A model generated the notes under the pieces. It worked only from the letters and a program-made list of their open reading frames with translations, was not told where the DNA came from and made no database searches. A stretch of DNA of 32,000 nt from an uncultured Candidatus Saccharimonas sp. (lineage in GTDB: Bacteria > Patescibacteriota > Saccharimonadia > Saccharimonadales > Saccharimonadaceae), in contig CAURWT010000001.1 of assembly GCA_963528875.1 (NCBI GenBank), positions 240,001-272,000 of the forward strand, in the 5' to 3' direction. Within the stretch, counting starts at the first letter, position 1. Each line of letters starts with the position of its first letter. This document shows, in pieces, positions 1-32,000 of the stretch. Made by a program: the position numbers and the translations under genes.

Positions 1-1
1 G

Positions 2-445
2 GAATTTACACTTGGGCAAATTTCCAGTACGGGCGATCCTGAAGGCGAGATTTCTAAATGCGAGAATTTTGAAATCCCAACTTTTGAACAGATTGAAAAA
101 GAAATTAAAACTAACTTTTTAGGCAAAATTGAACAAACTCCGCCAGCTTTTAGTGCAATAAAAATTGAGGGCAAGCGTGCCTATGATTTGGCGCGAAAAG
201 GTGAGGATTTTGAAATTCCTAAACGCACGGTTGAAATTTTTGATTTCGAAATTTTAAGTTATGATTTTCCAAAATTAAAAGTTCGCACACATGTTTCAAG
301 TGGAACTTACATTCGTTCGCTGGCAGAAGATTTGGGCAAAAATTTGGGTTGCGGTGCGTTTTGTTCGCAACTTCGGCGCACAAAAATTGCCGATTTTGAT
401 ATTTCGAAAGCTAAAAAGCTTGAAGATTTTGGAATTTTAGATTAG
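2..445 (+). CDS. truB: tRNA pseudouridine(55) synthase TruB, C-terminal part (5' end lies outside the window)
   Basis: Frame is open from the window edge. Translation contains QTPPAFSAIKIEGKRAYDLARKG and GTYIRSLAEDLG, both typical of TruB. TAG stop at 443-445. Confidence 0.9.
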   Translation, partial: EFTLGQISSTGDPEGEISKCENFEIPTFEQIEKEIKTNFLGKIEQTPPAFSAIKIEGKRAYDLARKGEDFEIPKRTVEIFDFEILSYDFPKLKVRTHVSSGTYIRSLAEDLGKNLGCGAFCSQLRRTKIADFDISKAKKLEDFGILD

Positions 446-468
446 TTTTTGCTTATACTGCCAAAAAA

Positions 469-477
469 TGATATAAT
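469..477 (+). promoter_or_regulatory. Extended -10 promoter TGATATAAT; ATG of orn lies 7 nt downstream (leaderless-type)
   Basis: TGaTATAAT at 469-477 and ATG at 485. No Shine-Dalgarno sequence in between. Confidence 0.55.
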
Positions 478-484
478 TTAAATA

Positions 485-1033
485 ATGAAAAACGCAAAAA
501 TTCTTTGGATTGATTTAGAAATGACCGGTCTTGAACCTGAAAAAGACCGAATTTTAGAAGTTGCGGCAATTGCGACAGATTGGGATTTTAATGAAATTGC
601 CACTTTCGAAAGTGCAGTTAAGGTTGATGAGAAAATTCTCGAAATCCGAATGGTTGGTGATTTTTGGGATACTTTTAGCGAAACGCGTGATGCTTTAAAA
701 TTGCAAAATTCTTGCGCTACAAAAAATTCACAAGAAGTTGAAGCGGATTTAATTAAATTTGTAGAAGAAAATTTTGCCGAAGAAATTTTGAAAGGCGAGA
801 AAATTATTTTGGGTGGAAATTCAATTCACCAAGATCGCCGATTTATTCGTGAAGAATGGAAAAAACTTGAAAAAATGCTGCATTATCGAATGTTAGATGT
901 TTCAGCGTGGAAAGTTGTGATGAGCGCTAAGTTTAAACGGGTGTTTGCTAAGCCTGAAAATCACCGCGCGCTGGATGATATTCGCGGTTCGATTGAAGAG
1001 TTGAAATTTTATTTAAAAAAGGTGAAAAAGTAA
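485..1033 (+). CDS. orn: Oligoribonuclease (DEDDh 3'-5' exonuclease)
   Basis: 182 aa. Motifs ILWIDLEMTGL, GNSIHQDRRFI and HRALDDI match the Orn exonuclease motifs. Confidence 0.9.
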   Translation: MKNAKILWIDLEMTGLEPEKDRILEVAAIATDWDFNEIATFESAVKVDEKILEIRMVGDFWDTFSETRDALKLQNSCATKNSQEVEADLIKFVEENFAEEILKGEKIILGGNSIHQDRRFIREEWKKLEKMLHYRMLDVSAWKVVMSAKFKRVFAKPENHRALDDIRGSIEELKFYLKKVKK

Positions 1034-1458
1034 TGGATCAAAGTGAAATTAAAGATTTTTTGCTGAATTTTTACGCAGCGGAAGTTCGAAAAGATGAAGA
1101 AAATAAACTTGAAATTTTTGAAGTTAATTTTGATAAATTAGAAAAAATTTGGCAAGAAAAAATGGCTGGCGAGCTTGGCGATTTTGAGCGTGAGACTGGT
1201 GAAAAGATTCTTTCGAAAATTGCAGAAAGTGAAGAGCCAAAAGCAATTTTTGCAATCATTCACGATGGTTCAAAACCTTTAAAAGTTGAAATGAAAACAG
1301 GCGTGCAGCTTGCTCGAATTTTGCGTGAAAAGGAGAGTGTAGTGCCTTCAAAGTTGATGAGCGAGCGTGAGTGGAATTTGATTATTGGCCAAGGACAAGT
1401 TTCGGCTGAAGAATTGCGAGATTTGTTTCGCTTGAGCTATCGCTTGGTTTGCGAGTAA
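1033..1458 (+). CDS. Hypothetical acidic protein, translationally coupled to orn
   Basis: 141-aa ORF. Its start overlaps the orn stop (TAATG at 1031-1035). No family recognised. Confidence 0.6.
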   Translation: MDQSEIKDFLLNFYAAEVRKDEENKLEIFEVNFDKLEKIWQEKMAGELGDFERETGEKILSKIAESEEPKAIFAIIHDGSKPLKVEMKTGVQLARILREKESVVPSKLMSEREWNLIIGQGQVSAEELRDLFRLSYRLVCE

Positions 1459-1538
1459 AATATATTTTGTAGTTTCTCTTTTAGATAGAAAATAACCTTG
1501 CAAAAGCGGGGTTTTTCTTTGCGAAAAAAACTTTTTTG

Positions 1539-1547
1539 TGATATAAT
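1539..1547 (+). promoter_or_regulatory. Extended -10 promoter TGATATAAT upstream of the Q/N-rich protein gene
   Basis: TGaTATAAT at 1539-1547. In-frame ATG at 1558 is 10 nt downstream, and there is no SD. Confidence 0.5.
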
Positions 1548-1557
1548 CATAAGTAAT

Positions 1558-2574: not shown

Positions 2575-4311
2575 ATGAATGATGCCAGAGACGAAATTAA
2601 AGCAAGAATAAGCATTGAAGATTTGGCTGGCGAATATCTTGAGCTCAAGCGAACTGGGCGTAATTTTAAAGCACTTAGTCCCTGGACAAATGAGCGAACT
2701 CCGAGTTTTATAATCAGCCCCGATAAACAAATTTGGCACGATTTTTCATCTGGAAAAGGCGGTGACATCTTTGGTTTTATTATGGAAGTTGAAGGAATGA
2801 ATTTCCGCGAGGCCTTAGAATTTCTGGCGCGAAAAGCTGGCGTTGAAATTGAAACTTTTGATTCAAAGCGTTCAAGAGAAATTTCTGAAAAAAAAGAACG
2901 ACTTCGAAAAATTTTGCAAATTAGTGCAAATTTTTATCAGCATATGTTGGTTCGTAATAAAGAAGCTTTGAATTATGTTTTTAAAAATCGCAAACTTTCG
3001 AAAGAAATTGTGCAAGAGTTCAAAATTGGTTTTGCTCCAAATACTCAAAAAATGCTCACGAATTTTTTGCTAAAAAAAGGTTTTGCGATGAGCGATATTC
3101 GTGATGCTGGGTTGTTAAACCGATTTGGCGGCGATATTTTTCGAAATCGAATGGTGATTGCTTTGCAGGATTCGGGTGGGTCGCCAGTTGGTTTTACCGG
3201 CCGAATTATTAAAGATGAGCCAAATGCGCCAAAATATTTAAACACACCTCAAACTTTGCTTTATGATAAATCTTCAAACATTTTTGGCCTTTCGCAAGCA
3301 AAAAATGAAATTCGAAAAGCTGGTTTTGTGGTTGTAGTTGAAGGAAATATGGATGTAATTTCGAGCCATCAAGCTGGTGTGAAAAATGTGGTTGCAACGG
3401 CCGGTACGGCGATGACAGTTCATCATTTAAAGGCTCTTGGTAGGTTTTCGAATGATGTTCGCCTTTGTTTTGATAGCGATCAAGCTGGAATTAGCGCTAC
3501 CGAGCGAGCAATTTCGTTAGGACAACAAGCTGGTGTGGAGCTTTCAATTATCACCTTAATTCAATCGGCAGGTGAAGCTAAAGACCCAGATGAATTAATT
3601 CAAAAAGATTTGGAACTTTGGAAGGATTCAATTTCGAAGCCACAACCGGCGATAGAATGGATTTTTGACCAATATGAAAAACGGCTAAATATTGCAACCG
3701 CCGTAGGAAAAAAGGAGTTTTCCACAATAGCACTGAAACTTGTGGAAAACTTAAATGACCCTGTGGAAAAAGATTTTTATATTGAACAAATTTCGAAAAG
3801 AATTGGCATTTCGAAAACAACATTACTCGGAAAATTTGACGAAAAGCCTAGGCCAGTTAAACCAAAAAGGCGAATAAAAATTGAAAAAACTGACGAGAAA
3901 TTTGTTGATGAATATATTTATGAAGATGATTTGTTAGCTCTTGCGATTAAAGAACAGAAGCTTGCTGAAATGTTGAGTGAGTTGCAAGATGATATTTTAC
4001 ATAATAAACAACGAAATCAAATTCTGCAAATTTTGAAATCAAATAATCTCGATCTCTTGAAAAACTTCGATGGTTATGTTAAAATACTTCTATTAAAGGC
4101 TGACGAACGACTCGGAAATATAAAAGGCAGTGCCACCGACGAAATGAAGCGTTTGATTCATAAAATTAAAACCCAAAATTTACAAGAACGAAAAGTGAAT
4201 CTTCAAAAGCAACTCGAAGATGCTGAAATTCAAGGTGATGAAAATTTGAGAATGAAGATTTTGATGGAAATTATACAATTAAATAAGGAGCTGAATAGTG
4301 GTAAAAGGTAA
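2575..4311 (+). CDS. dnaG: DNA primase DnaG with a degenerate zinc-binding domain
   Basis: N-terminal [32 protein letters not shown] aligns to the zf-CHC2 region. TOPRIM motifs [11 protein letters not shown] and CFDSDQAG are present. Sits directly upstream of rpoD, the conserved order. Confidence 0.93.
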
Positions 4312-8238: not shown

Positions 8239-8258
8239 TTTTCGAAAAAACATTTTTA

Positions 8259-8267
8259 TGATATAAT
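8259..8267 (+). promoter_or_regulatory. Extended -10 promoter TGATATAAT upstream of ftsK
   Basis: TGaTATAAT at 8259-8267. TTG at 8273 and ATG at 8279 follow. Confidence 0.5.
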
Positions 8268-8278
8268 ATAAATTGATT

Positions 8279-10543: not shown

Positions 10544-10560
10544 TTTGCCGATTTTTTTAT
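10531..10560 (+). terminator. Rho-independent terminator overlapping the ftsK stop
   Basis: AATCGG (10531-10536) pairs with CCGATT (10548-10553), followed by a T-run. Confidence 0.45.
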
Positions 10561-10633
10561 TTTCTAATAATATTTTAATAGATTCTTAAAATTAAAGAAA
10601 TATTGGAGTTTTATTGATTTTTTTCTCTAAAAA

Positions 10634-11689: not shown

Positions 11690-11699
11690 TTGATTTTCG

Positions 11700-11740
11700 A
11701 ATCTTCCTTGCTCAAAACTGGGTAGGGAAGATTTATTTTT
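11700..11740 (+). terminator. Rho-independent terminator after rpsR
   Basis: AATCTTCCTT (11700-11709) pairs with AGGGAAGATT (11724-11733), with one G-U pair. 14-nt loop, then TATTTTT. Confidence 0.5.
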
Positions 11741-13213: not shown

Positions 13214-14290
13214 TTAAACGTTAAACCTAAATTCAACAACATCATTTGATGACATAATATATTCTTTACCTTCAGTTCGAATTTTTCCACGATTCTTTGC
13301 TCCAAGCTCACTGCCAGCTTCAATTAAATCATTAAAGTCAATAACTTGTGCAGCAATAAAACCCCTTTCGAAATCTGTATGAATTACTCCTGCAGCTTGT
13401 GGAGCTGTCCATCCTTTCTTGATCGTCCAGGCATGAACTTCTTTTGGTCCTGCTGTCATATAACTTTGTAGCCCAAGCGTGTCGTAGGCGACATGGATCA
13501 TCTGTTTTAAGCCAGTTTCTTTAACTCCGTAGCTTTCGAGTAAATCTTTTGAATCTTCCTCGCTTAGGCCTTTTAGCTCTTCCTCTAGCTTGGCGCATAC
13601 GAATATTGACTTTGCAGGCAGAACCATTTTTGAAAGTTCTTCTTTTTTAGCTCCATCGGTTAAAGTATTTTCATCAACATTGAACGCATAAATTACAGGT
13701 TTTGCAGTTAGTAAATGTAAATCTTGAATTGCTTCGTAATCTAAATCTTCTATTGAAGAGAGAAGAACTCCAGCTTGAAGTTGTTCAACTAATTTGTTCA
13801 AGTATTCAGCTTGTTTTCGAAGAGCTGGTTTTGCCTTTGCTTCTTTTTGGAGTTTGGGCAAGCGGTTTTCGATAGTTTGAATATCTGCTAAAATCAACTC
13901 AGTATTAATAACCTCAATGTCATTTTTTGGATTGACTTCGTTCGAAACATGAACAATATCATTGTTCACGAAAGCTCGAACAATATGAACAATTGCGTCA
14001 CATTGGCGAATATTTGCGAGAAATTTATTACCTAAACCTTCACCTTTCGAAGCTCCCGCAACTAGCCCGGCAATATCAACAAAAGTTACTGTTGCTGGAA
14101 TAATTTTTTGTGATCCATAAATTTCAGCTAATTTATTTAAGCGTGAATCTGGCACTGGCACAATTCCAGTATTTGGCTCAATTGTTGCAAAAGGGTAATT
14201 TGCTGCTAAAATATCATTATTAGTCAGTGCGTTAAACAGTGTTGATTTACCAACATTTGGTAGTCCAACAATTCCAATTGATAAACTCAT
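13214..14290 (-). CDS. ychF: Ribosome-binding ATPase YchF
   Basis: [19 protein letters not shown]-loop and C-terminal TGS-like [15 protein letters not shown] 7 nt upstream of the ATG. Confidence 0.95.
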
Positions 14291-17072: not shown

Positions 17073-17290
17073 TGAAAAAAACTGATATTGCGATGATTAT
17101 TTTGATTGCGGGTTTTAGCGTTTTAATTTCATATTTAGTTATTAACTCTTTAGCTCAGGGTGGGTTTTCTGAACAGACTTATGAAGTTAAGACTACTGAA
17201 CCAATTTCGAACGAATATGTAAAACCAAGTAGTGAAATTTTTAATAAGGATGCTATTAATCCAACAGTTCAAGTTAATATTGGACAATAA
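17072..17290 (+). CDS. Small single-pass membrane protein in the pilus operon
   Basis: 72 aa with TM IAMIILIAGFSVLISYLVI. TAATG coupling to the previous gene. Confidence 0.5.
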   Translation: MKKTDIAMIILIAGFSVLISYLVINSLAQGGFSEQTYEVKTTEPISNEYVKPSSEIFNKDAINPTVQVNIGQ

Positions 17291-17317
17291 ATATTAAATA
17301 ATTCAAAAAGGAATGTA

Positions 17318-19087: not shown

Positions 19088-19099
19088 AACGGGAGGAAT

Positions 19100-20167
19100 A
19101 TGAATCAAAATCTAAGAATAGAAATTTTACTTGAAGAAATCGTTCGAAAAAACGCAAGCGATCTTCACTTACAAGTTGGTTTACCACCAATGATGCGGCT
19201 TGATGGTGTTTTGGCGCCATTCCCAGGATACAACCCATTAAATGCTGAAGAAGTTGAGCGTCTTGTTTTTGCGATTCTTGATGATGACCAGCAAAAAATT
19301 CTGATTAAAGATAAGGAATTTGACTTCTCATTTGCCTTTGGTGATTTGGGTCGTTTTCGTGTTAATGCTTTTCATGAACGTGGTAATTTAGCAGCTTCGC
19401 TTCGTTTAATTCCGAATCAGATTAAAACTATTGCTGAGCTTGGAATGCCACCAGTGATCCAGTCTTTTGCCGATTTTCCGCGTGGTTTAGTTTTAGTTAC
19501 CGGGCCAACTGGTTCAGGAAAATCTACAACTCTTGCCGCTTTGATTGATAAAATTAACAGCGAAAAAGCTCAGCATATCATTACGATTGAAGATCCGATT
19601 GAGTTTACACATAAATCGAAACGTTCAGCGATTGTTCAGCGAGAAGTTCATTATGACACTTATTCATTTTCTGCGGCTCTTCGAAGTTCGCTTCGTCAAG
19701 ATCCAGATGTTGTTTTGATTGGCGAGATGCGTGATCTTGAAACGATTTCGGCTGCAATTACAATTGCTGAAACTGGGCACTTAGTGTTTGCAACGCTTCA
19801 CACAAACTCTGCAGCGCAATCAATCGATCGTATGATTGATGTTTTTCCACCGCACCAACAGCCTCAAGTTCGTTCGCAGCTTGCTAATATTCTGCAAGGA
19901 ATTTGTGCTCAACGACTTGTTCCTGCAATTGGCGGTGGGCGAGTTGTTGCGGCTGAAGTTATGGTTGCGAACCCTGCAATTCGAAATATTATTCGTGAAG
20001 GAAAAACTCATCAGCTTGATACTGTTATTCAAACTGGTTCCGACCAAGGGATGCAGACAATGGATAGAACGCTTGTTAAATTGGTGCAATCTGGCGTGGT
20101 AACTTATGATGATGCGCGCGAATTTGCGGTTGATTTAGTTGAATTTGAAAGGTTGATGAGAGGCTAA
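19100..20167 (+). CDS. pilT: Twitching motility (retraction) ATPase PilT
   Basis: GPTGSGKSTTLAALI, GHLVFATLHTNSA, and the PilT signature AIRNIIREGKTHQL. Confidence 0.93.
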   Translation: MNQNLRIEILLEEIVRKNASDLHLQVGLPPMMRLDGVLAPFPGYNPLNAEEVERLVFAILDDDQQKILIKDKEFDFSFAFGDLGRFRVNAFHERGNLAASLRLIPNQIKTIAELGMPPVIQSFADFPRGLVLVTGPTGSGKSTTLAALIDKINSEKAQHIITIEDPIEFTHKSKRSAIVQREVHYDTYSFSAALRSSLRQDPDVVLIGEMRDLETISAAITIAETGHLVFATLHTNSAAQSIDRMIDVFPPHQQPQVRSQLANILQGICAQRLVPAIGGGRVVAAEVMVANPAIRNIIREGKTHQLDTVIQTGSDQGMQTMDRTLVKLVQSGVVTYDDAREFAVDLVEFERLMRG

Positions 20168-20168
20168 T

Positions 20169-21374
20169 ATGAAAAAATTTTCTTATAAAGTAAAAGATCG
20201 TGTTACTGGTAAAATCGTTAAAGGTGAAATTTCAGCAGATAGTCAGCGTGCGGCTGGAAAAGCTCTTATTGATCAAGGCTATATTTTGCAAGATGATATT
20301 TATGAAGTTGGCCAAGAAAACGCTTTGGCGAGGTTTATGAACCGAATCACAACTAAGGATAAAATCGTCTTCACTCGTCAGTTTGCTACTTTGATTGGTG
20401 CAGGTTTACCTCTTGCACAGGCCCTTCGAACAGTTTCTGAGCAAACTGAAAATAAAAAGATGCGTTCAGTTGTTGATGACATTTTGGCTTCAGTTGAAAG
20501 TGGTTCAAGCTTGAAAGATGCTTTTTCGAAATTTCCAGATGTTTTCGATAAAGTTTATCTTGCTTTGATTGCTGCTGGTGAAATGTCAGGAACACTTGAT
20601 GAATCGCTTCGCCGTGTTGCAACTCAGCAAGAAAAAGACGCGGCAATGATGAGTAAGATTCGTGGGGCTTTAACTTACCCAGTAATTGTGCTTGTAGTTA
20701 TTGGTCTTGTGATGGCGTTTATGATGGTGCAGGTTGTTCCTCAAGTTAAGCAGCTCTATAAAGATATGCACCAAGAATTGCCATTTGCAACACAAATTCT
20801 TATTGGAATATCCGACTTTATGATTAACTTCTGGTGGCTTGTTTTAGTTGGACTAGGTGTTGCTGGTTATTTCTTCCGCCAATATCTTAAAACCGAATCA
20901 GGAATTAAATTTGCGGCAAATTTCAAACTAAATGTTCCATTATTTAGTCCGCTATTTCGAAAGCTTTATATGGCACGATTTGCAAGAACTGGTCAGCTTT
21001 TGCTTTCAACTGGTGTTGCAATGCTTGATATGCTCAACATTTGTGGCGATGCGATGAATAATGTTATTGTGAAAAAGAGTATTGATGAAGCCGGAAAACT
21101 CGTTCAAGGCGGTAAAAGTCTTTCAGAATCTTTAAAGGGTAAAGATTATATTTTGGATATGGTGCCACAAATGATTAACATTGGTGAGCAATCTGGTAAA
21201 ATTGATGAAATGCTTGGCAAAACCGCGCAGGTTTATGAAGATGAACTTGATGAGCAAATTAAAGCTATTTCAACCTTGATTGAGCCAATCTTGATGGTTG
21301 TGATGGCATTGATGGCGGGTGGTTTGATTGGTGCAATTTTGTTCCCAATTTACTCGCTAGTTACAAAAGTTTAA
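20169..21374 (+). CDS. pilC: Type IV pilus platform protein PilC (GspF family)
   Basis: 401 aa with duplicated GspF domains (FTRQFATLIGAGLPL and MARFARTGQLLLSTGV) and three TM segments. Confidence 0.9.
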   Translation: MKKFSYKVKDRVTGKIVKGEISADSQRAAGKALIDQGYILQDDIYEVGQENALARFMNRITTKDKIVFTRQFATLIGAGLPLAQALRTVSEQTENKKMRSVVDDILASVESGSSLKDAFSKFPDVFDKVYLALIAAGEMSGTLDESLRRVATQQEKDAAMMSKIRGALTYPVIVLVVIGLVMAFMMVQVVPQVKQLYKDMHQELPFATQILIGISDFMINFWWLVLVGLGVAGYFFRQYLKTESGIKFAANFKLNVPLFSPLFRKLYMARFARTGQLLLSTGVAMLDMLNICGDAMNNVIVKKSIDEAGKLVQGGKSLSESLKGKDYILDMVPQMINIGEQSGKIDEMLGKTAQVYEDELDEQIKAISTLIEPILMVVMALMAGGLIGAILFPIYSLVTKV

Positions 21375-21392
21375 TTTTTCGAAAGGAAGAGA

Positions 21393-22295
21393 GTGGAGAA
21401 TTTTCTATTAAGTTTAATTTGTGGCGTAATTGGTGCCGTTTTGGGTAGTTTTTCGGTTGCCCAAGTTTGGCGATTGCGTGCAAAACAACTTCAAGAAGAG
21501 AGAGAATCTGGTAAAAAAGTTGATTCTACTGAATGGAAAAAACTCTGCTCTTTAGTTTCGGTTAAAACAAAAAATGACCGCTCGCATTGTTTGAACTGCA
21601 ACTATCAACTAAAATGGTTTGATTTAATTCCAATTATTTCTTGGCTTTCACTTGGCGGAAAATGTCGTAAATGCCGTTCGAAAATCGGCTCGCTTGAATT
21701 TTTATCTGAAATTTTAATGTTTGCGCTTTTTGCGATTATTTTCTTAATTTTTAACCCGATTTCGAATGGCACAATTTTAGTTTTGCCAGCAATTAGACTT
21801 TTCATTTTATTAATTTCTCTGGTTCCGCTTGCAATTATGTTTATTTATGATGCTAAGTGGTCACTTTTGCCAACCAAACTTCTGTATATTTTTAATATTT
21901 TAGCGTTTATTTATTGGGCAACTGGGTTTTTGACAGTTTCTGGTGGATTTAATTTAAGATCCATTTTTTACTTAGTAATTTCAATGATGTTCTTCCCGTT
22001 GATCTATTTTGTGCTTGCAAAAATTTCGAAAGAGCAATGGGTTGGTGGTGGCGACTGGATTTTGGCAGTTGGCTTGATTTTTCTTTTACCAAACCACCCA
22101 GTTTTTGCAATTTTTCTACTTTTCCTTTCGAATGTTGTGGGCTTGGTTTTTGCAGTTTTCCAATCTATCTTGCATTTTCGAAAAGTTAAACGTGGAACAC
22201 AAATTCCATTTGGTCCGGCAATGATTTTAGCGGCTTTAATTTTGTTAGCCCTTCAACAGCAAATTTTGGTATTTTTTATCAATTTGATAATGTAA
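21393..22295 (+). CDS. pilD: Prepilin peptidase (A24 family) PilD
   Basis: GTG start after AAAGGA. CLNCNYQL...GGKCRKC zinc motif. Polytopic membrane protein with GGGDWIL. Confidence 0.88.
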   Translation: MENFLLSLICGVIGAVLGSFSVAQVWRLRAKQLQEERESGKKVDSTEWKKLCSLVSVKTKNDRSHCLNCNYQLKWFDLIPIISWLSLGGKCRKCRSKIGSLEFLSEILMFALFAIIFLIFNPISNGTILVLPAIRLFILLISLVPLAIMFIYDAKWSLLPTKLLYIFNILAFIYWATGFLTVSGGFNLRSIFYLVISMMFFPLIYFVLAKISKEQWVGGGDWILAVGLIFLLPNHPVFAIFLLFLSNVVGLVFAVFQSILHFRKVKRGTQIPFGPAMILAALILLALQQQILVFFINLIM

Positions 22296-22309
22296 AAATA
22301 AAAAGCTTA

Positions 22310-22318
22310 TGGTATAAT
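22310..22318 (+). promoter_or_regulatory. Possible internal extended -10 promoter TGGTATAAT ahead of the pilin-like genes
   Basis: TGgTATAAT at 22310-22318. AGGAG at 22319-22323 and ATG at 22329. Confidence 0.4.
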
Positions 22319-22328
22319 AGGAGTAAAT

Positions 22329-23396
22329 ATGGAAAACTTTACAATGAAAAAAGCTTTTACAATTATTGAAGTGATACTTGTTTTGGGTATCTCTGGTTTA
22401 ATGTTAGCAACTATGCTTGTTGGCTGGAATGCTAGTATTGAAAAACAGCGCTATAATGATTCAGTGAATACTTTTAAATCAGATATTCAGGGTGTGTTTT
22501 CGGATGTAGAAAATCAAACTAACGATAAGGGTTCTACAAAAATTAAATGTGACACGTCTGGTGTAAATATAAGTATTTTAAAAGATAATGGCGGCAAATT
22601 AACGGGTTCAAGCAATTGTGTAATACTTGGAAAGTATATCTCTCTATATAATGGGAATGTTATTCCTGGGAATGAAAATGCAACTCTTGGACAAGAGCGA
22701 TTCAGGGTTTTTGATGTTATAGGAAAAGATATAGATACATCAAAGGATTGTCGGGCTATAGATGAGAATGGTAGATTACATGGTGATTTGCGAGCATGTA
22801 GAAATAGTATAGAAGCCTTACGTGCAACAAAATTTGTTCTTGATGGTGGTAAGAATAGTGTAAAAGGCCCAAAAGATATAGAATTGCAATGGCGCGGAAC
22901 ATATAAAAATGTTACAGATAATAGGATAACTAGTGCTAGTGGGATACGAGCATTCAGCCACAAAAGTGCAGTTACCTCAATAACAAGTGGCGATAATAAG
23001 TGGCATGGTTTAGATACGATCACAGGCGTTTTGATATTAAGATCTCCTATTGATAATTCAATAATTTCTTTCGGCACTTCAGCAATGATAGAACATGGTT
23101 CTCTTGATGATGATGGTCTTATAGCCGCTTTTAGAGATATAAATATAAATAGTGATTTTGTTATCAAAAATGGGAAAACAGTTAATGTTTGCGTTCGACC
23201 TTCTAACGACGGAGTGCAATGGTATGCTGGTGGCTTCAATTTCTTCGGCGATAGAAATAAAGTTGTAAAAATTGGACCTTCAGCTTCTGCTGTTGAAATC
23301 GCACCTCTTGACGGTCCTAAGGGCTCTTCTTGTGGTGGTGATAGAAAAGGAGATGCAAGATTTGGTGATGTAATAATTGATGGAAAGAAATTATAA
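22329..23396 (+). CDS. Large (355 aa) type IV pilin-like protein with a class III signal peptide
   Basis: MENFTMKKA|FTIIEVILVLGISGLMLA has a prepilin leader, Glu at +5 and a hydrophobic helix. The C-terminal domain carries 7 Cys. AGA/ATA-rich codon usage. Confidence 0.8.
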   Translation: MENFTMKKAFTIIEVILVLGISGLMLATMLVGWNASIEKQRYNDSVNTFKSDIQGVFSDVENQTNDKGSTKIKCDTSGVNISILKDNGGKLTGSSNCVILGKYISLYNGNVIPGNENATLGQERFRVFDVIGKDIDTSKDCRAIDENGRLHGDLRACRNSIEALRATKFVLDGGKNSVKGPKDIELQWRGTYKNVTDNRITSASGIRAFSHKSAVTSITSGDNKWHGLDTITGVLILRSPIDNSIISFGTSAMIEHGSLDDDGLIAAFRDININSDFVIKNGKTVNVCVRPSNDGVQWYAGGFNFFGDRNKVVKIGPSASAVEIAPLDGPKGSSCGGDRKGDARFGDVIIDGKKL

Positions 23397-24007
23397 TGAA
23401 ATTTCGAAAAGGTGATACATTAATTGAAGTGCTTCTTGCTATTGCTGTTTTTGCAACTGTAATGATGATTGGGTTGACTACAATGAATAATGGAATGTCG
23501 CGTGCGCTAGCAAGTTTGCAGCTTACTATGGCGCGAAATGCTATGGACACTCAAGCAGAAGCTTTGCGTTTTGCGAATGCGGCGTTTATTTCTGAATATC
23601 GCGCAGATAGTTCAGAAGTTTCAAGTCCTGCAGCAGAATTATGGAAAAACAGCTTAACGAAAGATGCTCAAGGCTCAGCAACCCCACTTGGGGAATGTAG
23701 TCGAGGCTCAAGTGCTTTTGTTATTTCGACAAGAGATATGGTGACGAATCGTGGTTATCATAATGAAAAAATAGTTAATGCAATAACTTATCCACGAATT
23801 GCTTATGGTGATGATAAAGATAATAATGCGAACTGGCTACGCGATGACCTTCCTTATAGAAGTGCACAAGGTATTTGGGTTGAGAAAGTTCACGCTCCAA
23901 ATACAAAATATTATGATTTTCATATTCGTGCATGTTGGTCCGCACCAGGAACTAACGTAAAAACAACTCTTGGAACGATTGTGAGGTTATATGACCCAAG
24001 GAACTAA
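23396..24007 (+). CDS. Pilin/pseudopilin-like protein with an unusual +1 Asp
   Basis: MKFRKG|DTLIEVLLAIAVFATVMMIGL has Gly at -1 and Glu at +5, followed by a hydrophobic helix. TAATG coupling. Confidence 0.7.
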   Translation: MKFRKGDTLIEVLLAIAVFATVMMIGLTTMNNGMSRALASLQLTMARNAMDTQAEALRFANAAFISEYRADSSEVSSPAAELWKNSLTKDAQGSATPLGECSRGSSAFVISTRDMVTNRGYHNEKIVNAITYPRIAYGDDKDNNANWLRDDLPYRSAQGIWVEKVHAPNTKYYDFHIRACWSAPGTNVKTTLGTIVRLYDPRN

Positions 24008-24665
24008 AAAAGGTTTTACGATTATGGAATTAATGCTAGCAATGGGCGTGATTGCGTTTCTGCTCGTTGGTGTTGCTGGCTTAATTATTCAAATGACGAA
24101 CACGATTACTCGTGGAACAACTTATAAAGATTTGAACGCTGCTGCTCGCACAATTAATGCAGATTTTACTAAGACTTTCAATTCTTCACCAATGCTTGAT
24201 GATTGGAATGGTGGTGTTGATGGTAAATTTTATAAATCTACTGGTGCGGCCGGCGCATTTTGTACCGGAACTGTGAGCTACTTGTGGAATATAGGAGATG
24301 GAAGACAGATAGTTTTTAGTGATATTAGTGCCGTTAAATTAGTAAAAGTTCGCGATACTGCTAGATCTTATTGCGCTGATGGTGCCGAAAATACAATTTG
24401 GCGAAGGGTGCCTCGAGACAACAATGTTACAGATATTCTAACTAGTAGTGAAATCGACCTTCGATTACATGGAATTAATTTTTCAACCTCGCCTAATTTA
24501 AAAAATAGTGCATCAAACCAAATGATCGTTAATATTTCTTATATTCTAGGAACGCCAAACAATGGCGATATAGATGTAAGCACATATAATTGTGAAGGCA
24601 ATATTAAAAGTAATTATTGCGCAGTTAATAGATTCGATTTGACTGTTCGAACTCTTGGTAAATAA
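23991..24665 (+). CDS. Type IV pilin-like protein (canonical G|FTxxE leader)
   Basis: MTQGTKKG|FTIMELMLAMGVIAFLLVGVAG. 224 aa. Several Cys in the C-terminal domain. Confidence 0.8.
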   Translation: MTQGTKKGFTIMELMLAMGVIAFLLVGVAGLIIQMTNTITRGTTYKDLNAAARTINADFTKTFNSSPMLDDWNGGVDGKFYKSTGAAGAFCTGTVSYLWNIGDGRQIVFSDISAVKLVKVRDTARSYCADGAENTIWRRVPRDNNVTDILTSSEIDLRLHGINFSTSPNLKNSASNQMIVNISYILGTPNNGDIDVSTYNCEGNIKSNYCAVNRFDLTVRTLGK

Positions 24666-24691: not shown

Positions 24692-25607
24692 ATTCTGTTT
24701 CGCTGTGAAATTTCTCGTGAATTTCTTTTAAATGCTGGTCAGTGATATGTGTATAGATTTGTGTTGTTGCAATACTGGCATGGCCAAGCATTCCTTGCAC
24801 TGATCGCAAATCCGCACCATTTACGAGTAAATCTGTTGCAAAAGAATGTCGCATTGTGTGGGGCGAAACATGTTTTGTGATTCCGGCAAGTTTTGCGTAT
24901 TTTTCAACCATTCTTTGCACCGAACGTGGTGTAATTCGCCGATAATTTCCATCGGTTGAAGGTTTTTTGTATCGTCGCGAATAATTTAAAAATAACGGTT
25001 GTAAGTTATCATTTCGAGCGTCTAAATAATTTTCGATATGCTCTGCGGATTTTTTCGAAATAAAAATTGGTCGGTCTTTGTTTCCTTTTCCGCGAACGGT
25101 AAATTCACGCCGCTTTGTATTGATGCTTCCACGGTTTAAATTCACAAGCTCAGAAACACGCAAACCGCTCGAAAAGAGTAATTCCACAATTGCGCGGTCT
25201 CGTAAATCACTCTCGGTTTCATTTGGAATCTCAGCAATTAAGCGCTCAATTTCTTCATAATGCAAAAAATTCACTTGTGGCTTTACAATTTTTGGTAGCT
25301 CAATCTTTGAAGGCTCCAAGCTTTTAATATCGCGCCGAGCGAGATAAGTTAAAAATCTTCGAAGGGCAATTAGGTGATAAGCTTGTGTAGCTCGCCCTAA
25401 ATCTTTGCCAAATTCATTTTCGTAACGATTAAGCCATAAACGATATTTTCGAACTAATTCTGAGGTAATTTCTTTTGCTGGAATATCGCCAGCAAATTCA
25501 ACAAATCGCTCCAAATAAAGCCGATAATTCTCGGCCGTCTTTTTCGAACGGCCACCTTCAACTTCGAGCGATTCAATAAAATCTTCAATTCCTTCAGAAA
25601 TATACAT
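24690..25607 (-). CDS. Tyrosine recombinase XerC/XerD family
   Basis: SGLRVSELVNL (Arg), HTMRHSFAT (HxxR), and LGHASIATTQIYTH (His and Tyr). 305 aa. Confidence 0.9.
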   Translation of the reverse strand: MYISEGIEDFIESLEVEGGRSKKTAENYRLYLERFVEFAGDIPAKEITSELVRKYRLWLNRYENEFGKDLGRATQAYHLIALRRFLTYLARRDIKSLEPSKIELPKIVKPQVNFLHYEEIERLIAEIPNETESDLRDRAIVELLFSSGLRVSELVNLNRGSINTKRREFTVRGKGNKDRPIFISKKSAEHIENYLDARNDNLQPLFLNYSRRYKKPSTDGNYRRITPRSVQRMVEKYAKLAGITKHVSPHTMRHSFATDLLVNGADLRSVQGMLGHASIATTQIYTHITDQHLKEIHEKFHSETE

Positions 25608-27969: not shown

Positions 27970-28047
27970 TGGCGCGCCCGACCGGATTCGAACCGGCGAT
28001 CTCCTCCGTGACAGGGAGGCGTACTAGGCCAACTATACCACGAGCGC
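27970..28047 (-). tRNA. tRNA-Asp (anticodon GTC), CCA encoded
   Basis: The reverse complement folds as follows. Acceptor GCGCTCG/CGGGCGC, anticodon stem CCTCC/GGAGG with loop CTGTCAC, T arm GCCGG-TTCGAAT-CCGGT, then GCCA. Confidence 0.9.
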
Positions 28048-30319: not shown

Positions 30320-30332
30320 GGTTCAATATTCA

Positions 30333-30361: not shown

Positions 30362-30619
30362 CTAATGTAGGAGCATTTGTAAGGTTTTCTTAAACCTTAC
30401 CAAAAAAGTGCGTCGTCGTTTGGGTGACGAAAATAGCAGAGGTTATTATGAATGCAACAGTAGTTACTAAAAACTATATAAAAAAATTTTTTTTATTTTG
30501 TTTGCCCAAACCTGATTAGACTTTTTCCGAAGCCTAATCTCATTTTTATTTTACTGCGTTTTATTTAAAAAAGCAAGCATAATTATGATGTTGAGTATCT
30601 TTTTCGAAAGCTAAAAATT

Positions 30620-30697
30620 TTGTTCGCTTTTTTAGTAAAATTGAGTTTTTGAAAATAAAACATTTCACACGAAAGTCAAACTTAAAAAAGCGAACAA
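30620..30697. repeat. Perfect 15-bp inverted repeat (TTGTTCGCTTTTTTA / TAAAAAAGCGAACAA) around a 48-bp spacer
   Basis: Arms at 30620-30634 and 30683-30697, read directly. Lies in non-coding DNA. Confidence 0.9.
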
Positions 30698-30846
30698 TCT
30701 AAAATAAATATCTCACCAAATGAATAAAAATTTTCGAAAGCTGAAAACCAGCTTGTGGAAAAGCTTTGGCGGAATGTGTAAAACTAAAAAATACAATAAC
30801 GCTATATGTAGGGAAGAAGAAAATATGAAAATAGTGATAATTTTTA

Positions 30847-30876
30847 CAAAACTAAAATACCGCACATTGAGTGCGA
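30847..30876 (-). terminator. Possible terminator for tRNA-Val (minus strand)
   Basis: Minus strand reads CGCAC-TCAAT-GTGCG followed by GTATTTTAGTTTTG. Confidence 0.4.
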
Positions 30877-30938
30877 TATCTTAGAACATTGATTATAAAA
30901 ACTAACAATATAATTAAAGGAATTACTATATTATAAGT

Positions 30939-31015
30939 TGGTGGGCGATAGAGGACTTGAACCTCTGACTTTCACAACGTCAATGTGACGCTCTAGCCAA
31001 CTGAGCTAATCGCCC
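30939..31015 (-). tRNA. tRNA-Val (anticodon GAC), CCA encoded
   Basis: The reverse complement folds as follows. Acceptor GGGCGAT/ATCGCCC, anticodon stem TCACA/TGTGA with loop TTGACGT, T arm AGAGG-TTCAAGT-CCTCT, then ACCA. Confidence 0.9.
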
Positions 31016-31023
31016 GTGGTTTT

Positions 31024-31032
31024 ATTTTAGCA
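31024..31032 (-). promoter_or_regulatory. Extended -10 promoter (TGCTAAAAT on the minus strand), 8 nt upstream of tRNA-Val
   Basis: The reverse complement of 31024-31032 reads TGCTAAAAT. A TTGAAT -35 lies 17 nt upstream on the minus strand. Confidence 0.5.
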
Positions 31033-31056
31033 AAGCTTGCAAGAAAATTCAAGTGG

Positions 31057-31065
31057 TGATAAAAT
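31057..31065 (+). promoter_or_regulatory. Extended -10 promoter TGATAAAAT for thrS, with a leader of about 30 nt containing TTTCGAAA and SD AAAGGA
   Basis: Read directly. Divergent from the tRNA-Val promoter. Confidence 0.45.
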
Positions 31066-31102
31066 AAAAAGAGTTAAAATATTATTTTCGAAAGGATTTT
31101 AA

Positions 31103-32000
31103 GTGGAGAATAAAGAAGAAAAACTTTTTAGAATGCGCCATAGCCTTGCTCATATTATGGCGGCGGCGGTTCAACAAATTTATAAGGACGCAAAATTTGG
31201 TGTTGGCCCAGCAATTAATGATGGTTTTTATTATGATATTGATTTAGGTGAAAATAAAATTTCAGAAAAAAACTTTGGAAAAATTGAAAAAGCTATGCGG
31301 CGAATTATTGCCGAAAAGCAAGATTTTGTGCGAAGCGAAGTTTCGATTGAAGAAGCAATCGAGTGGGCAAAAGAAAATAATCAGCCATATAAATTAGAGC
31401 TTTTGAACGATTTAAAAAAAGCCGGCACAACAAATGCGAAAATTCTTGCTGAGGGCGATTTTGAACTTGGTAACGGCGCTGAAACTGTTAGCTTTTATAC
31501 TAATGGAAATTATAAAGACTTGTGCCGTGGGCCACATCTTTCGAATACTGGAGAAGTTGGCGCTTTTAAATTGATGCGCGTTGCTGGTGCTTATTGGCGT
31601 GGTGATGAAAAAAATCCGCAGATGCAGCGTCTTTACGGTGTGGTTTTCGAAACTCAAGAAGAACTTAATGAATATCTTGAAAGAATGGAAGAAGCTAAAA
31701 AACGCGACCACCGCAAACTTGGTAAAGAGCTTGATTTGTATACCGTTTCTCCACTTGTTGGTATTGGTCTACCACTTTTCACGCCGCGTGGAACAATTTT
31801 ACGTGATGTTTTAGCGAACTATTCAAATCAATTACGCAAAAAATACGGTTTCGAAAAAGTTTGGACTCCGCACATTACTAAAAAAGATTTGTATGAAAAA
31901 TCTGGACACTGGGCTAAATTTGGCGAAGAACTTTTCTTGGTGAAATCGCAGGTTACTGGCGGTCAATTTGCTTTAAAACCTATGAACTGTCCGCACCATA
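31103..32000 (+). CDS. thrS: Threonyl-tRNA synthetase, N-terminal part (3' end outside the window); no TGS domain
   Basis: Not in the ORF track because there is no stop in the window. GTG at 31103 follows an in-frame TAA, and an alternative ATG lies at 31133. Translation gives RHSLAHIMAAAV, DLCRGPHL, AYWRGD, RDHRKLG and MNCPHH. Confidence 0.92.
   Translation, partial: MENKEEKLFRMRHSLAHIMAAAVQQIYKDAKFGVGPAINDGFYYDIDLGENKISEKNFGKIEKAMRRIIAEKQDFVRSEVSIEEAIEWAKENNQPYKLELLNDLKKAGTTNAKILAEGDFELGNGAETVSFYTNGNYKDLCRGPHLSNTGEVGAFKLMRVAGAYWRGDEKNPQMQRLYGVVFETQEELNEYLERMEEAKKRDHRKLGKELDLYTVSPLVGIGLPLFTPRGTILRDVLANYSNQLRKKYGFEKVWTPHITKKDLYEKSGHWAKFGEELFLVKSQVTGGQFALKPMNCPHH

What the first reader, a model, noticed from the sequence alone, without database searches (positions are those of the whole stretch)
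1..32000. Palindromic 8-mer TTTCGAAA (core TTCGAA) is hugely over-represented in coding DNA of every phase, both gene orientations, and intergenic DNA
A manual line-by-line scan gave about 105 TTCGAA and about 47 perfect TTTCGAAA in 32 kb. Both counts are by eye and could be off by a few. With roughly 38% GC (also eyeballed), base composition predicts about 10-11 and about 1. That is about 10-fold and about 45-fold excess, and about one CpG in ten sits in this context. The excess is not a single codon-pair effect, because the 8-mer occurs in all three phases. Phase T|TCG|AAA gives x-Ser-Lys (402-409 ISK, 14463-14470 LSK) and is the majority. Phase TTC|GAA gives Phe-Glu (244-251, 604-611). Phase TT|CGA|A gives Phe-Arg-Lys (23402-23409). 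It also occurs in minus-strand genes (13366-13373 in ychF, 25053-25060 in the xer gene). Non-coding copies lie at 8240-8247, 21377-21384, 30602-30609, 30732-30739 and 31086-31093. Flanks are biased too: TTTCGAAAGCT occurs about 7 times, and a full 20-bp palindrome sits at 14457-14476. The density (about 1 per 0.7 kb) is in the range of the DNA uptake sequences of Haemophilus and Neisseria. The window also carries a complete pilus extension/retraction machine with three unusual pilin-like proteins. Candidate explanations, all inference: (a) a DNA-uptake or self-recognition tag read by a pilin or other receptor; (b) the target of a TTCGAA-specific methyltransferase (BstBI/AsuII specificity) with repair-driven enrichment, the opposite of normal restriction-site avoidance; (c) the binding site of an abundant dimeric nucleoid protein. 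The motif visibly shapes the proteome, with many [ILVF]-S-K, F-E and F-R-K peptides.
Basis: partly seen in the sequence, partly recalled or inferred. Interest (0 to 1): 0.88.

Follow-up and report, generated by a model that had tools for sequence, protein, structure and literature searches.

The report
Hyper-abundant TTTCGAAA palindrome in oral Saccharibacteria
This Saccharibacteria (TM7) genome has written the 8-base palindrome TTTCGAAA into about half of all places where its proteins allow it, closely resembling the unexplained HIP1 palindrome of cyanobacteria, and sister species with and without the motif offer a way to find its cause.

Summary
The window holds 106 TTCGAA and 47 TTTCGAAA, against 10.7 and 1.1 expected from composition. 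TTTCGAAA is the commonest 8-mer.

The excess survives Markov orders 0-3 and a synonymous-codon shuffle (96 observed against 30±5). It is equal in all three reading phases, both gene orientations and non-coding DNA. About 49% of all positions where synonymous codons could spell TTCGAA do so.

The window comes from a prevalent human-associated Saccharibacterium (TM7).
- Strains 95.6% identical keep the sites.
- Synonymous positions inside the motif vary 2.4-3 times less than background.
- The conservation footprint is exactly 8 bp.

About 130 other Saccharibacteria loci lack the excess. Among close sister species it is patchy: one equally enriched at unrelated positions, one intermediate, one without.

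It is built by point substitution, not by a mobile element. A Vsr-type deamination-repair origin is disfavoured. Proteome shaping is weak.

The best reading is a HIP1-like iterated palindrome. A symmetric TTCGAA-reading protein would maintain it, probably linked to a methyltransferase and natural transformation. No methyltransferase was seen, but only about 50 kb of genome was visible, so the mechanism remains inference.

The parts
1..32000 (.). Field of 106 TTCGAA sites, of which 47 are the full TTTCGAAA (marked *). Start positions of TTCGAA: 245*,403*,605*,1085,1212*,1665,2094*,2250,2903,2997*,3140*,3311,3447,3633,3792*,3810*,4385,4488,4809,5281,5479,5616*,6082,6104,6218*,6227,6371*,6544,6886*,7018,7404,7650,7911*,8127*,8241*,8668,8846*,9019*,9415,9805*,10349*,10740,10774,11092,11231*,11696,11955,12039,13048,13276,13367*,13816,13941,14046,14464*,14660,15497,15674,15989,16086,16843,17206,17863*,18231,18240,18672,19143,19680,19980,20425,20525*,20956*,21378*,21677,21761,22025*,22127,22177*,23403*,24646,24675,25054*,25358,25448,25543,25761*,26136*,26371*,26570,26639*,26792*,27540*,27573*,27629,27693*,27987,28663,29178*,29311*,29808*,30603*,30733*,31087*,31540,31646*,31850*
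   Evidence: Spacing is more even than random: CV 0.80 against 0.98, P=0.012; variance/mean per 2 kb is 0.66.
402..409 (+). Example of phase xxT|TCG|AAx (I-S-K) in truB. This is the commonest phase, 52 sites.
244..251 (+). Example of phase TTC|GAA (Phe-Glu), 15 sites.
23402..23409 (+). Example of phase xTT|CGA|Axx (F-R-K) at the start of a minor-pilin-like gene, 31 sites.
13366..13373 (-). Copy inside the minus-strand gene ychF.
25053..25060 (-). Copy inside the minus-strand xerC/D-type recombinase gene.
8240..8247 (.). Non-coding copy between holA and ftsK.
11696..11701 (.). Non-coding 6-mer copy between rpsR (S18) and efp. It is polymorphic among strains: L083 has TTTGAA here.
21377..21384 (.). 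Non-coding copy between pilC and the prepilin peptidase gene.
30602..30609 (.). Non-coding copy downstream of the glycosyltransferase gene.
30732..30739 (.). Copy in a non-coding stretch. It lies inside a doubtful 54-codon ORF called in some strains.
31086..31093 (.). Non-coding copy just upstream of thrS, which starts at 31103.
14457..14476 (.). Perfect 20-bp palindrome TCCAGCTTTCGAAAGCTGGA centred on the motif, inside pilM. It is a single instance, not a repeat family.
3791..3816 (+). Two full 8-mers 10 bp apart inside dnaG. These are the closest pair of 8-mers in the window.
27987..27992 (-). TTCGAA inside a tRNA (27973-28047), in the ordinary T-loop sequence. It is counted among the 106 sites but is not evidence for the phenomenon.
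14390..24665 (+). Context only: type IV pilus cluster (pilM, two pilN/O-like genes, pilB, pilT, pilC, prepilin peptidase, three minor-pilin-like genes). It is a candidate part of a DNA-uptake route. Any link to the motif is inference.

Best explanation
What it is (high confidence). TTTCGAAA, with core TTCGAA, is a highly iterated palindrome of the HIP1 type. It is a tag in the DNA of this Saccharibacterium and some sister species, seen throughout the ~48 kb sampled and presumably genome-wide.
- It was built one point substitution at a time, inside genes and between them.
- It is held at a set-point of about 3.3 sites per kb, which is about 50% of all synonymous opportunities.
- The force that holds it reads a symmetric 8-bp footprint in duplex DNA.

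How it most likely works (inference).
1. The motif is read by a symmetric, type-II-like DNA-binding protein with TTCGAA specificity. This is probably a TTCGAA (m6A) methyltransferase or a protein that reads its mark.
2. That protein acts in the natural-transformation route of these competent, piliated cells.
3. Conspecific DNA carrying the tag is taken up and/or recombined preferentially.
4. Tagged alleles therefore replace untagged ones, a molecular drive that behaves like biased gene conversion.
5. Ordinary mutation, mostly CpG transitions to TTTGAA/TTCAAA, erodes sites.
6. The balance of drive and erosion gives the observed saturation, the even spacing and the conservation within species.
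7. Gain or loss of the reader protein would explain why sister species differ.
For: Shown:
- A 10- to 43-fold excess that is robust to Markov orders 0-3 and to codon shuffling.
- Equal density in the three phases, both gene orientations and non-coding DNA.
- Occupancy of synonymous opportunities is 45%, 52% and 49% in the three phases. It is the same ~50% in the independently enriched species L274, against 5% in sister L272.
- The two halves of the palindrome are coupled.
- There is no extended repeat around the motif and no indels at orthologous sites, so it arose by substitution.
- 9-10 strains from independent assemblies keep 60-67 sites per 21.7 kb.
- Third-codon positions inside the motif vary at 9 of 122 sites against 21-28 expected (P = 8e-4 to 5e-6).
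- Consensus flanks vary at 1 of 82 sites, against 6.7% one base further out, so the footprint is 8 bp.
- A second species shows the same 2.5-fold protection.
- One-step decay products are enriched as a 'shadow'.
- Spacing is more even than random.
- Distribution is patchy on the tree (window,(B,C)), with B lacking the motif and C having it.
- There is no excess in about 130 other Saccharibacteria loci.

From the literature:
- Saccharibacteria are naturally competent through ComEC, acting with type IV pili (PMC10633639).
- TTCGAA-specific m6A methyltransferases exist (PMC5930826).
- HIP variants co-occur with cognate methyltransferases (PMC4390886).
- Methylated HIP1 boosts natural transformation up to 100-fold (10.1101/2024.09.10.611283).
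- HIP1 abundance correlates with uptake-machinery genes (10.64898/2026.06.24.733823).
Against: - No methyltransferase, receptor or com gene was seen. Only about 50 kb of a roughly 0.7-Mb genome could be inspected.
- Known uptake sequences (USS/DUS) are non-palindromic and 9-12 bp long. An AT-rich 6-8-mer gives only about 10-43-fold discrimination of self DNA.
- Parsimony within the main clade shows 10 losses against 5 gains, so there is no sign of ongoing net drive.
- Site positions are not shared between the two enriched species: 15 shared against 12.7 expected by chance.
- In species C the signal looks like independent TCGA/TCGAA half-site enrichment rather than a coupled palindrome.
- Conservation and even spacing are equally predicted by biased repair with saturation, or by direct selection for a nucleoid function.
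Confidence: 0.4

Rival explanations
1. By-product of methylation-directed, biased mismatch repair (Elhai's ratchet for HIPs). A resident TTCGAA methyltransferase marks sites. A repair system that uses the mark preserves replication errors that create or extend a site and removes errors that destroy one. Sites accumulate until repair coverage saturates. The motif itself has no function.
For: - The core is a classical type II methyltransferase target, and such m6A enzymes are known.
- The pattern is an 8-mer extending a 6-mer core, with deviations concentrated at the outer positions. 46 of 106 sites lack one flank, and inner variants are rare. This matches HIP1.
- The set-point and even spacing look like saturation.
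- Protection covers all 8 positions, not only the CpG.
- The patchy distribution is typical of methyltransferase gain and loss.
Against: - No methyltransferase, MutS/L or MutH-like gene could be checked.
- The density (3.3/kb) is above the ~1/kb saturation the model predicts.
- Xu et al. argued that HIP1 conservation reflects selection rather than repair replenishment.
- The model is unproven even in cyanobacteria.
Confidence: 0.25
2. Binding site of an abundant nucleoid or chromosome-organising protein. The sites are kept by direct selection for chromosome structure, segregation or replication, as proposed for HIP1 from its periodicity.
For: - Sites are conserved at synonymous positions with a sharp 8-bp footprint.
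- Spacing is more even than random.
- Density is equal in coding and non-coding DNA.
- Xu et al. 2018 favour this reading for HIP1.
Against: - An 8-bp spacer-less palindrome is atypical for nucleoid proteins.
- A sister species at the same divergence does without it.
- Positions are completely reshuffled between the two enriched species. This argues against position-specific structural roles.
- No candidate protein was identified.
Confidence: 0.12
3. Very-short-patch repair of deaminated m5C, as with Dcm/Vsr at CCWGG in E. coli. An m5C methyltransferase acts at TTCGAA. A Vsr-like nuclease converts T:G mismatches in the contexts TTTGAA/TTCAAA into TTCGAA, over-producing the site.
For: - 14 of 20 strain polymorphisms at sites are TTCGAA<->TTTGAA/TTCAAA.
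- The window carries an fpg repair gene, but that gene is not specific to this process.
Against: - The predicted depletion of TTTGAA/TTCAAA is not seen. These words are enriched 2.1-3.5 fold in motif-rich genomes against 1.0-1.5 fold in relatives.
- Protection is strongest at the outer T/A positions, which Vsr would not restore.
- Motif CpGs are less variable than other CpGs, not more.
- Known TTCGAA methyltransferases are m6A enzymes.
- Known VSP effects are below 2-fold (own knowledge).
Confidence: 0.05
4. Not a real feature: a side effect of base composition, codon or codon-pair usage, dipeptide content, or a dispersed miniature mobile element.
For: - The maximal-order Markov expectation (92 / 46) is close to the observed count.
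- Ser-Lys is the majority phase.
Against: - Lower-order Markov nulls and the synonymous shuffle are rejected by wide margins.
- All three phases have the same ~50% occupancy.
- Non-coding density equals coding density.
- Orthologous proteins of unenriched relatives offer the same peptides but do not spell the motif.
- No repeat longer than the motif exists, and there are no indels.
- The same counts appear in independent assemblies from ENA, JGI and Logan.
Confidence: 0.01

Closest known systems
HIP1 and alternate HIPs of cyanobacteria (GCGATCGC, core CGATCG; Robinson 1995, Elhai 2015 PMC4390886, Xu 2018 PMC5861425)
   Same: - A palindromic octamer around a type-II-like 6-mer core, and the most over-represented 8-mer.
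- Similar density: 1469 per Mb here against 300-2700 per Mb.
- Similar O/E: 43 here against 15-300.
- Present in all reading frames and in non-coding DNA.
- Sites conserved between related genomes.
- One-off variants differ mainly at the outer positions.
- Related lineages carry variant motifs or none.
   Different: - AT-rich (25% GC), whereas HIPs were described as 75% GC or more.
- Found in a CPR episymbiont with a tiny genome, not in a cyanobacterium.
- Confined to a few species-level lineages rather than a whole phylum.
- The cognate methyltransferase was not demonstrated here.
- Periodicity at 10-90 kb was not testable.
- The 6-mer itself is 10-fold enriched here, whereas CGATCG outside HIP1 mostly is not.
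DNA uptake sequences: USS of Pasteurellaceae and DUS of Neisseriaceae
   Same: - About 1-3 copies per kb.
- Present in coding DNA of all frames.
- Mismatched 'decayed' copies are also enriched.
- Spacing is more even than random.
- The host clade is naturally competent with type IV pili.
- Accumulation can be explained by molecular drive without benefit to the cell.
- Lineage-specific 'dialects' are a possible parallel: TTTCGAAA here against TCGAA(A)-rich in species C.
   Different: - The motif is a spacer-less palindrome of only 8 bp, whereas USS/DUS are asymmetric 9-12-mers with extended flanks.
- It is not concentrated in terminators.
- It is absent from a sister species.
- No uptake bias or receptor has been shown.
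Dcm/Vsr-driven over-representation of CCWGG in E. coli
   Same: A methyltransferase target that is enriched rather than avoided. Polymorphism at sites is dominated by C<->T at the potentially methylated CpG.
   Different: - The effect here is 10-43-fold, not below 2-fold.
- The deamination-product words are enriched, not depleted.
- Protection extends to the outer T/A positions.
Type II restriction-modification specificity TTCGAA (BstBI/AsuII isoschizomers; M.SspP37I m6A)
   Same: An identical 6-bp palindromic recognition sequence.
   Different: Genomes with an active restriction enzyme normally avoid the site. Here it is the most enriched word, which implies an orphan methyltransferase or a non-restriction reader, if any.

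Membership tests
HIP (highly iterated palindrome) class | A palindromic octamer is the most over-represented or most frequent 8-mer, at hundreds to thousands of copies per Mb | tested here: met
   There are 47 copies in 32 kb (1469 per Mb), with O/E 43 at order 0. It is the top 8-mer at Markov orders 0-3. The same holds in flanking DNA of other strains.
HIP (highly iterated palindrome) class | Occurs in coding DNA of every frame and in non-coding DNA, independent of the encoded peptide | tested here: met
   Phases are 15 / 31 / 52 and there are 8 non-coding sites. Occupancy of synonymous opportunities is 45 / 52 / 49%. The codon shuffle is rejected.
HIP (highly iterated palindrome) class | Sites are conserved between related genomes beyond background (Xu 2018) | tested here: met
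   Within species, third positions vary at 9 of 122 sites against 21-28 expected. Species C shows 2.0% against 5.0% divergence. Positions are not conserved between species at 72% identity.
HIP (highly iterated palindrome) class | A methyltransferase specific for the internal core is encoded in the genome (Elhai 2015) | not testable with these tools
   Only about 50 kb around the window could be read, and none was present there.
HIP (highly iterated palindrome) class | GC-rich motif in cyanobacteria | tested here: not met
   The motif is 25% GC. The host is Candidatus Saccharibacteria.
HIP (highly iterated palindrome) class | One-off variants deviate mainly at the first and last positions | tested here: met
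   Of the 106 TTCGAA sites, 47 have both flanks, 46 have one and 13 have none. Inner one-off words are at or below expectation.
DNA uptake sequence (USS/DUS) | Host is naturally competent with type IV pilus and Com machinery | tested here: inconclusive
   The window holds a complete pilM-pilB-pilT-pilC-pilD cluster plus minor pilins. comEC/dprA are not in the region seen. Competence has been shown only for other Saccharibacteria (PMC10633639).
DNA uptake sequence (USS/DUS) | About one copy per kb, genome-wide, on both strands | tested here: met
   Density is 1.5 (8-mer) to 3.3 (6-mer) per kb over about 48 kb. The rest of the genome was not seen.
DNA uptake sequence (USS/DUS) | Asymmetric 9-12-bp core with an extended flanking consensus | tested here: not met
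   The motif is a symmetric 8-bp palindrome. Composition and conservation return to background at the next base out.
DNA uptake sequence (USS/DUS) | Motif-bearing DNA is taken up preferentially | not testable with these tools
   This needs uptake-competition experiments.
VSP-repair-driven site enrichment (Dcm/Vsr type) | Depletion of the T-containing deamination-product words | tested here: not met
   TTTGAA + TTCAAA have O/E 2.1 in the window and 3.45 in L274, against 0.96-1.46 in unenriched relatives.
VSP-repair-driven site enrichment (Dcm/Vsr type) | An m5C methyltransferase and a Vsr endonuclease are encoded | not testable with these tools
Known TTCGAA methyltransferases are m6A enzymes.
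Miniature mobile repeat (MITE/REP-like) | Conserved sequence extends beyond the core, and copies are insertions relative to orthologues | tested here: not met
   No 12-16-mer containing the motif occurs more than 3 times. Flanks are at background. In codon alignments to L001, sites differ by substitutions only.

The most novel reading that the evidence does not exclude
TTTCGAAA is a species-specific self-DNA tag for natural transformation in Saccharibacteria. It would be the first uptake or recombination signal in the Candidate Phyla Radiation and the first palindromic one outside cyanobacteria. It would be read, possibly in its m6A-methylated form, by a component of the type IV pilus/Com route. 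Sister species switch it on, change its dialect (TCGAA-rich in group C) or lose it (group B).
Probability: 0.3. Interest if true: 0.85.

Novelty: new variant of a known kind. Interest (0 to 1): 0.72.

Why it matters
Hyper-abundant short palindromes have so far been essentially a cyanobacterial puzzle, unresolved for 30 years. This is an independent, AT-rich instance in an ultrasmall (~0.7 Mb) human-associated episymbiont.

- **A natural experiment.** Closely related, abundantly sequenced sister species have the motif at saturation, at an intermediate level, or not at all. Simple comparative genomics plus long-read methylation calls could identify the determinant, and so test the methyltransferase, repair and uptake hypotheses for HIP-like motifs in general.
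- **Practical use.** If the tag promotes uptake or recombination, adding it to donor DNA (methylated if needed) could make these hard-to-manipulate bacteria easier to transform.
- **A marker.** The motif could help in binning and strain tracking of this lineage.
- **A caution.** A DNA-level force here dominates synonymous codon choice. Half of all eligible Ser, Arg and Phe contexts are affected, which matters for codon-usage and selection analyses in such genomes.

Tried and rejected
1. **Maximal-order Markov null.** It gives roughly the observed count (92 / 46). This is uninformative because the sub-words are dominated by the motif, so it was replaced by orders 0-3 and codon shuffles.
2. **Half-site hypothesis for the window.** Rejected: TT is coupled to AA across the CpG, 43% against 13.5%. 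It does describe sister species L274.
3. **Vsr/deamination model.** Rejected on neighbour-word enrichment and on the position profile of conservation.
4. **MITE or longer-repeat explanation.** Rejected.
5. **Proteome shaping.** Only a weak S-[KN] effect was found.
6. **PilB homologue search.** It saturated with variants at 99% identity or more and gave no intermediate relatives. Searches with short conserved proteins (S18, EF-P) worked instead.
8. **Viral-contig scan for paired motifs.** It returned only chance hits and one tandem repeat, with no motif-rich phage.
9. **Metagenome-contig scan with a sister-lineage gene.** It found nothing closer than 53% identity. The 46 loci served only as extra unenriched background: 127 observed against 134 expected.
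10. **Search for a methyltransferase, nuclease or DNA-binding gene among unannotated ORFs.** Pfam and NCBIfam found nothing relevant in the ORFs tested, in the window and in the flanks L093/L096.
11. **Literature searches.** Searches for TTCGAA or uptake sequences in Saccharibacteria/Patescibacteria found no prior report.

Full report
**Observation.** The window holds 106 TTCGAA and 47 TTTCGAAA in 32,000 bases at 36.1% GC, and 9% of all 1181 CpG lie in this context. Every quoted coordinate carries the 8-mer. TTTCGAAAGCT occurs 7 times. 14457-14476 is a perfect 20-bp palindrome.

Expected numbers of the 6-mer / 8-mer are:

| Markov order | TTCGAA | TTTCGAAA |
|---|---|---|
| 0 | 10.7 | 1.09 |
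| 1 | 22.1 | 4.0 |
| 2 | 37.5 | 6.1 |
| 3 | 50.5 | 7.8 |

TTTCGAAA is the most frequent 8-mer of the window and has the top z-score under orders 0-3. The maximal-order Markov expectation (92 / 46) is close to the observed count. That is a nesting artefact: 106 of the 127 TTCGA and of the 127 TCGAA are the motif itself.

**It is a DNA-level signal, not a coding one.** The window encodes ordinary housekeeping genes: truB, dnaG, rpoD, fpg, holA, ftsK, rpsF, ssb, rpsR, efp, tlyA, ychF, a full type IV pilus cluster, xerC/D, ndk, thrS and four tRNAs.
- Sites fall in all three phases: TTC|GAA 15, xTT|CGA|A 31, xxT|TCG|AA 52. Nine lie in minus-strand genes.
- Eight sites are non-coding, and one of these is an ordinary tRNA T-loop.
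- Density is about 3.3/kb in coding DNA and about 3.7/kb outside it.
- Shuffling synonymous codons within each gene leaves 30.2 ± 4.7 sites against 96 observed. For the 8-mer it leaves 8.4 against 41.
- Codon choice depends on context. Ser is TCG in 63% of T_AA contexts against 5-18% elsewhere. Arg is CGA in 84% of TT_A contexts against 8%. Phe is TTC in 52% of cases before GAA against about 15%.
- Of 195 positions where the protein sequence would allow TTCGAA by synonymous choice, 96 (49%) carry it. The value is nearly the same in the three phases: 45%, 52% and 49%.

The palindrome, not the half-site, is the unit here. TT precedes 43% of CGAA but only 13.5% of other CpG. TCGA outside TTCGAA is, if anything, depleted: 69 against about 94 expected. 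T at -1 and A at +6 are each present at 66% of sites, independently of each other, and composition is at background one base further out. Spacing is more even than random: CV 0.80 against 0.98, P = 0.012. No longer repeat contains the motif.

**Source and relatives.** The PilB protein places the window in Candidatus Saccharibacteria (TM7, Candidate Phyla Radiation). The best species-representative genome is only 82% identical in PilB. Near-identical proteins occur on hundreds of contigs of up to 690 kb, including a Human Microbiome Project sample (JGI 7000000510, scaffold SRS053917). Sources name them Ca. Saccharimonas sp. or Ca. Nanogingivalis sp.. I infer a prevalent human-associated organism, and from the sample and study names probably an oral one.

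None of the 80 related loci shows the excess (O/E 0-2). Neither do 46 further Saccharibacteria loci, with 127 observed against 134 expected in 540 kb. The excess continues 9.5 kb to the left and 6.6 kb to the right of the window in other strains, with 30-38 and 18-19 sites against about 3 and 2 expected. It is therefore very probably genome-wide.

**Within-species behaviour.** Nine strains from independent assemblies were compared. They are 95.6% identical to the window and 97.5-99.9% identical to each other.
- All carry 60-63 sites in the shared 21.7 kb, where the window has 67.
- 53 of the 73 sites in the union are fixed.
- 14 of 20 differences are TTCGAA<->TTTGAA/TTCAAA.
- Third-codon positions inside the motif vary at 9 of 122 sites, against 21.3 expected from base-matched background (P = 8e-4) or 27.8 with CpG-matched background (P = 5e-6).
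- Protection is strongest at the outer T/A positions, 2-3% variable against 11-14%.
- Consensus flanks vary at 1 of 82 positions, while the next layer out varies at 6.7%, equal to background. The conserved footprint is therefore exactly 8 bp.
- Parsimony inside the main clade gives 10 losses and 5 gains, i.e. turnover around an equilibrium.

**Between-species behaviour.** Against orthologues in the 82% relative L001, only 1 of 55 aligned sites is shared. About 24 differ purely synonymously, including multi-step switches such as AGY->TCG and AGR->CGA. The rest coincide with changes to Ser or Arg. The effect on the proteome is small: x-S-[KN] 54 vs 35, [FLIV]-R-x 39 vs 41, F-E 14 vs 10.

Searching with short conserved proteins (S18, EF-P) exposed sister species at about 72% nucleotide identity:

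| Lineage | TTCGAA observed vs expected | TTTCGAAA observed vs expected |
|---|---|---|
| Group C (L274/L275) | 75 vs 6.4 | 14-16 vs 0.55 |
| Group D (L276) | 18 vs 6.45 | 6 vs 0.57 |
| L221 (short contig) | 4 vs 0.9 | 1 vs 0.10 |
| L225 (short contig) | 3 vs 0.4 | 1 vs 0.03 |
| Group B (L272/L273) | 6 vs 6.7 | 1 vs 0.6 |
| L220 | 6 vs 6.6 | 1 vs 0.63 |
| L222 | 0 vs 2.1 | 0 vs 0.15 |

A 2062-residue concatenate with L001 as outgroup supports the tree (window,(B,C)), with 48 informative sites against 24 and 19. The trait therefore needs either two gains or one gain and one loss.

Group C has the same ~50% occupancy of synonymous opportunities, whereas group B has 5%. The occupied positions in group C are independent of those in the window: 15 shared against 12.7 expected by chance. 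Two group C strains at 95% identity again protect the sites, with 2.0% divergence inside them against 5.0% outside.

In group C the signal is broader. TCGA is 286 against 74 expected, CTCGAA is 41, and TTCGAA equals the product of independent flanks on a TCGA core. This may be a different 'dialect' or a different reader.

**Mechanism.** What is shown is a force acting on duplex DNA. It recognises a symmetric 8-bp word, creates or retains it regardless of coding context, holds it at a similar set-point in two species, and is absent in a sister species.

The Vsr/deamination version of repair-driven enrichment is disfavoured for four reasons.
- The predicted source words TTTGAA/TTCAAA are enriched, not depleted (2.1 and 3.45 fold against about 1.0-1.5 in relatives). 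They look like a decay shadow.
- Outer positions are the best protected.
- Motif CpGs are less variable than other CpGs.
- TTCGAA methyltransferases described so far are m6A enzymes.

The closest precedent is cyanobacterial HIP1 and its alternates. These are palindromic octamers around a methyltransferase core, at 300-2700 copies per Mb, conserved between genomes and variable between lineages. For HIP1 the current candidate explanations are:
- a methylation-dependent repair ratchet;
- a role in chromosome structure;
- most recently, a methylation-dependent boost of natural transformation, with a correlation to uptake machinery.

Saccharibacteria are naturally competent through ComEC, which works with type IV pili, and the window itself carries a complete pilus machine. 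I therefore commit, at about 40%, to a transformation-linked molecular drive on a self-DNA tag, probably read through or with a TTCGAA methyltransferase. A pure methyltransferase/repair by-product gets about 25% and a nucleoid-site function about 12%.

None of these could be tested directly. Only about 50 kb of the genome was reachable, and it holds no methyltransferase, com gene or obvious reader.

**Novelty.** Full-text searches found no report of TTCGAA enrichment, HIP-like motifs or uptake sequences in Saccharibacteria or Patescibacteria. I class this as a new variant of a known kind: HIP-like, but AT-rich, in a different phylum, species-restricted, and with the defining methyltransferase link untested. 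Its main value is the natural experiment offered by abundantly sequenced sister species with, with partial, and without the motif.

Noticed in passing
L090:1-3300 (strain from JGI 7000000510, scaffold SRS053917_LANL_scaffold_24711); corresponds to window ~7300-10600: In this strain a Type I restriction-modification module (N6_Mtase hsdM plus two Methylase_S genes) lies upstream of rpsF, where the other strains have holA-ftsK. The segment is 31% GC and carries TTCGAA at about half the usual density (5 in 3.3 kb).
   Followed up: partly
window 1-32000: The four-base palindromes ACGT, CATG, GTAC and GATC are under-represented, at 0.54-0.64 of the maximal-order Markov expectation. Against composition, ACGT is 25 vs 104 and GTAC is 18 vs 104. 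This is the usual footprint of restriction avoidance, opposite to the TTCGAA behaviour.
   Followed up: no
L274, L275, L276, L272 (sister species loci): The alternating GC hexamers GCGCGC/CGCGCG are strongly over-represented in the sister species: 15 vs 1.3 in L276, 13 vs 1.5 in L274 and 5 vs 0.9 in L272. TTTAAA is depleted in L274 (4 vs 13).
   Followed up: no
window vs L083-L092: The window strain is a separate sub-lineage, about 95.6% identical to a tight clade of common strains that are 97.5-99.9% identical to each other. Third-position C and G in CpG differ in 46-49% of cases between them, far more than third-position A/T (11-14%).
   Followed up: partly
window 1-32000: There is strong strand asymmetry: G 6540 vs C 5003 and A 10469 vs T 9988. 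All but two genes lie on the + strand, consistent with a leading-strand, purine-loaded segment.
   Followed up: no
window 26316-26831 and 26746-27867: The called ORFs of the bPH-domain protein and the SurA/PpiC-like protein overlap by 86 bases. Other strains annotate a later start (349-360 aa), so the long start is probably wrong.
   Followed up: no
window 22329-24665: Three consecutive pilin-like genes have only the N-terminal prepilin methylation motif recognisable (weak ComGD/GspI/ComGE-like hits). They are among the fastest-evolving genes of the region, 38-47% identical to L001.
   Followed up: partly
window 1-32000: TTGCAA, another AT-flanked palindrome, is 52 vs 10.7 expected from composition. 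It loses its excess under the order-1 Markov model, unlike TTCGAA.
   Followed up: partly
L272-L276, L220, L221 downstream of efp: The sister species carry a ~575-aa PG_binding_4/Beta-lactamase2 protein between efp and tlyA. This protein is absent at that position in the window species.
   Followed up: no
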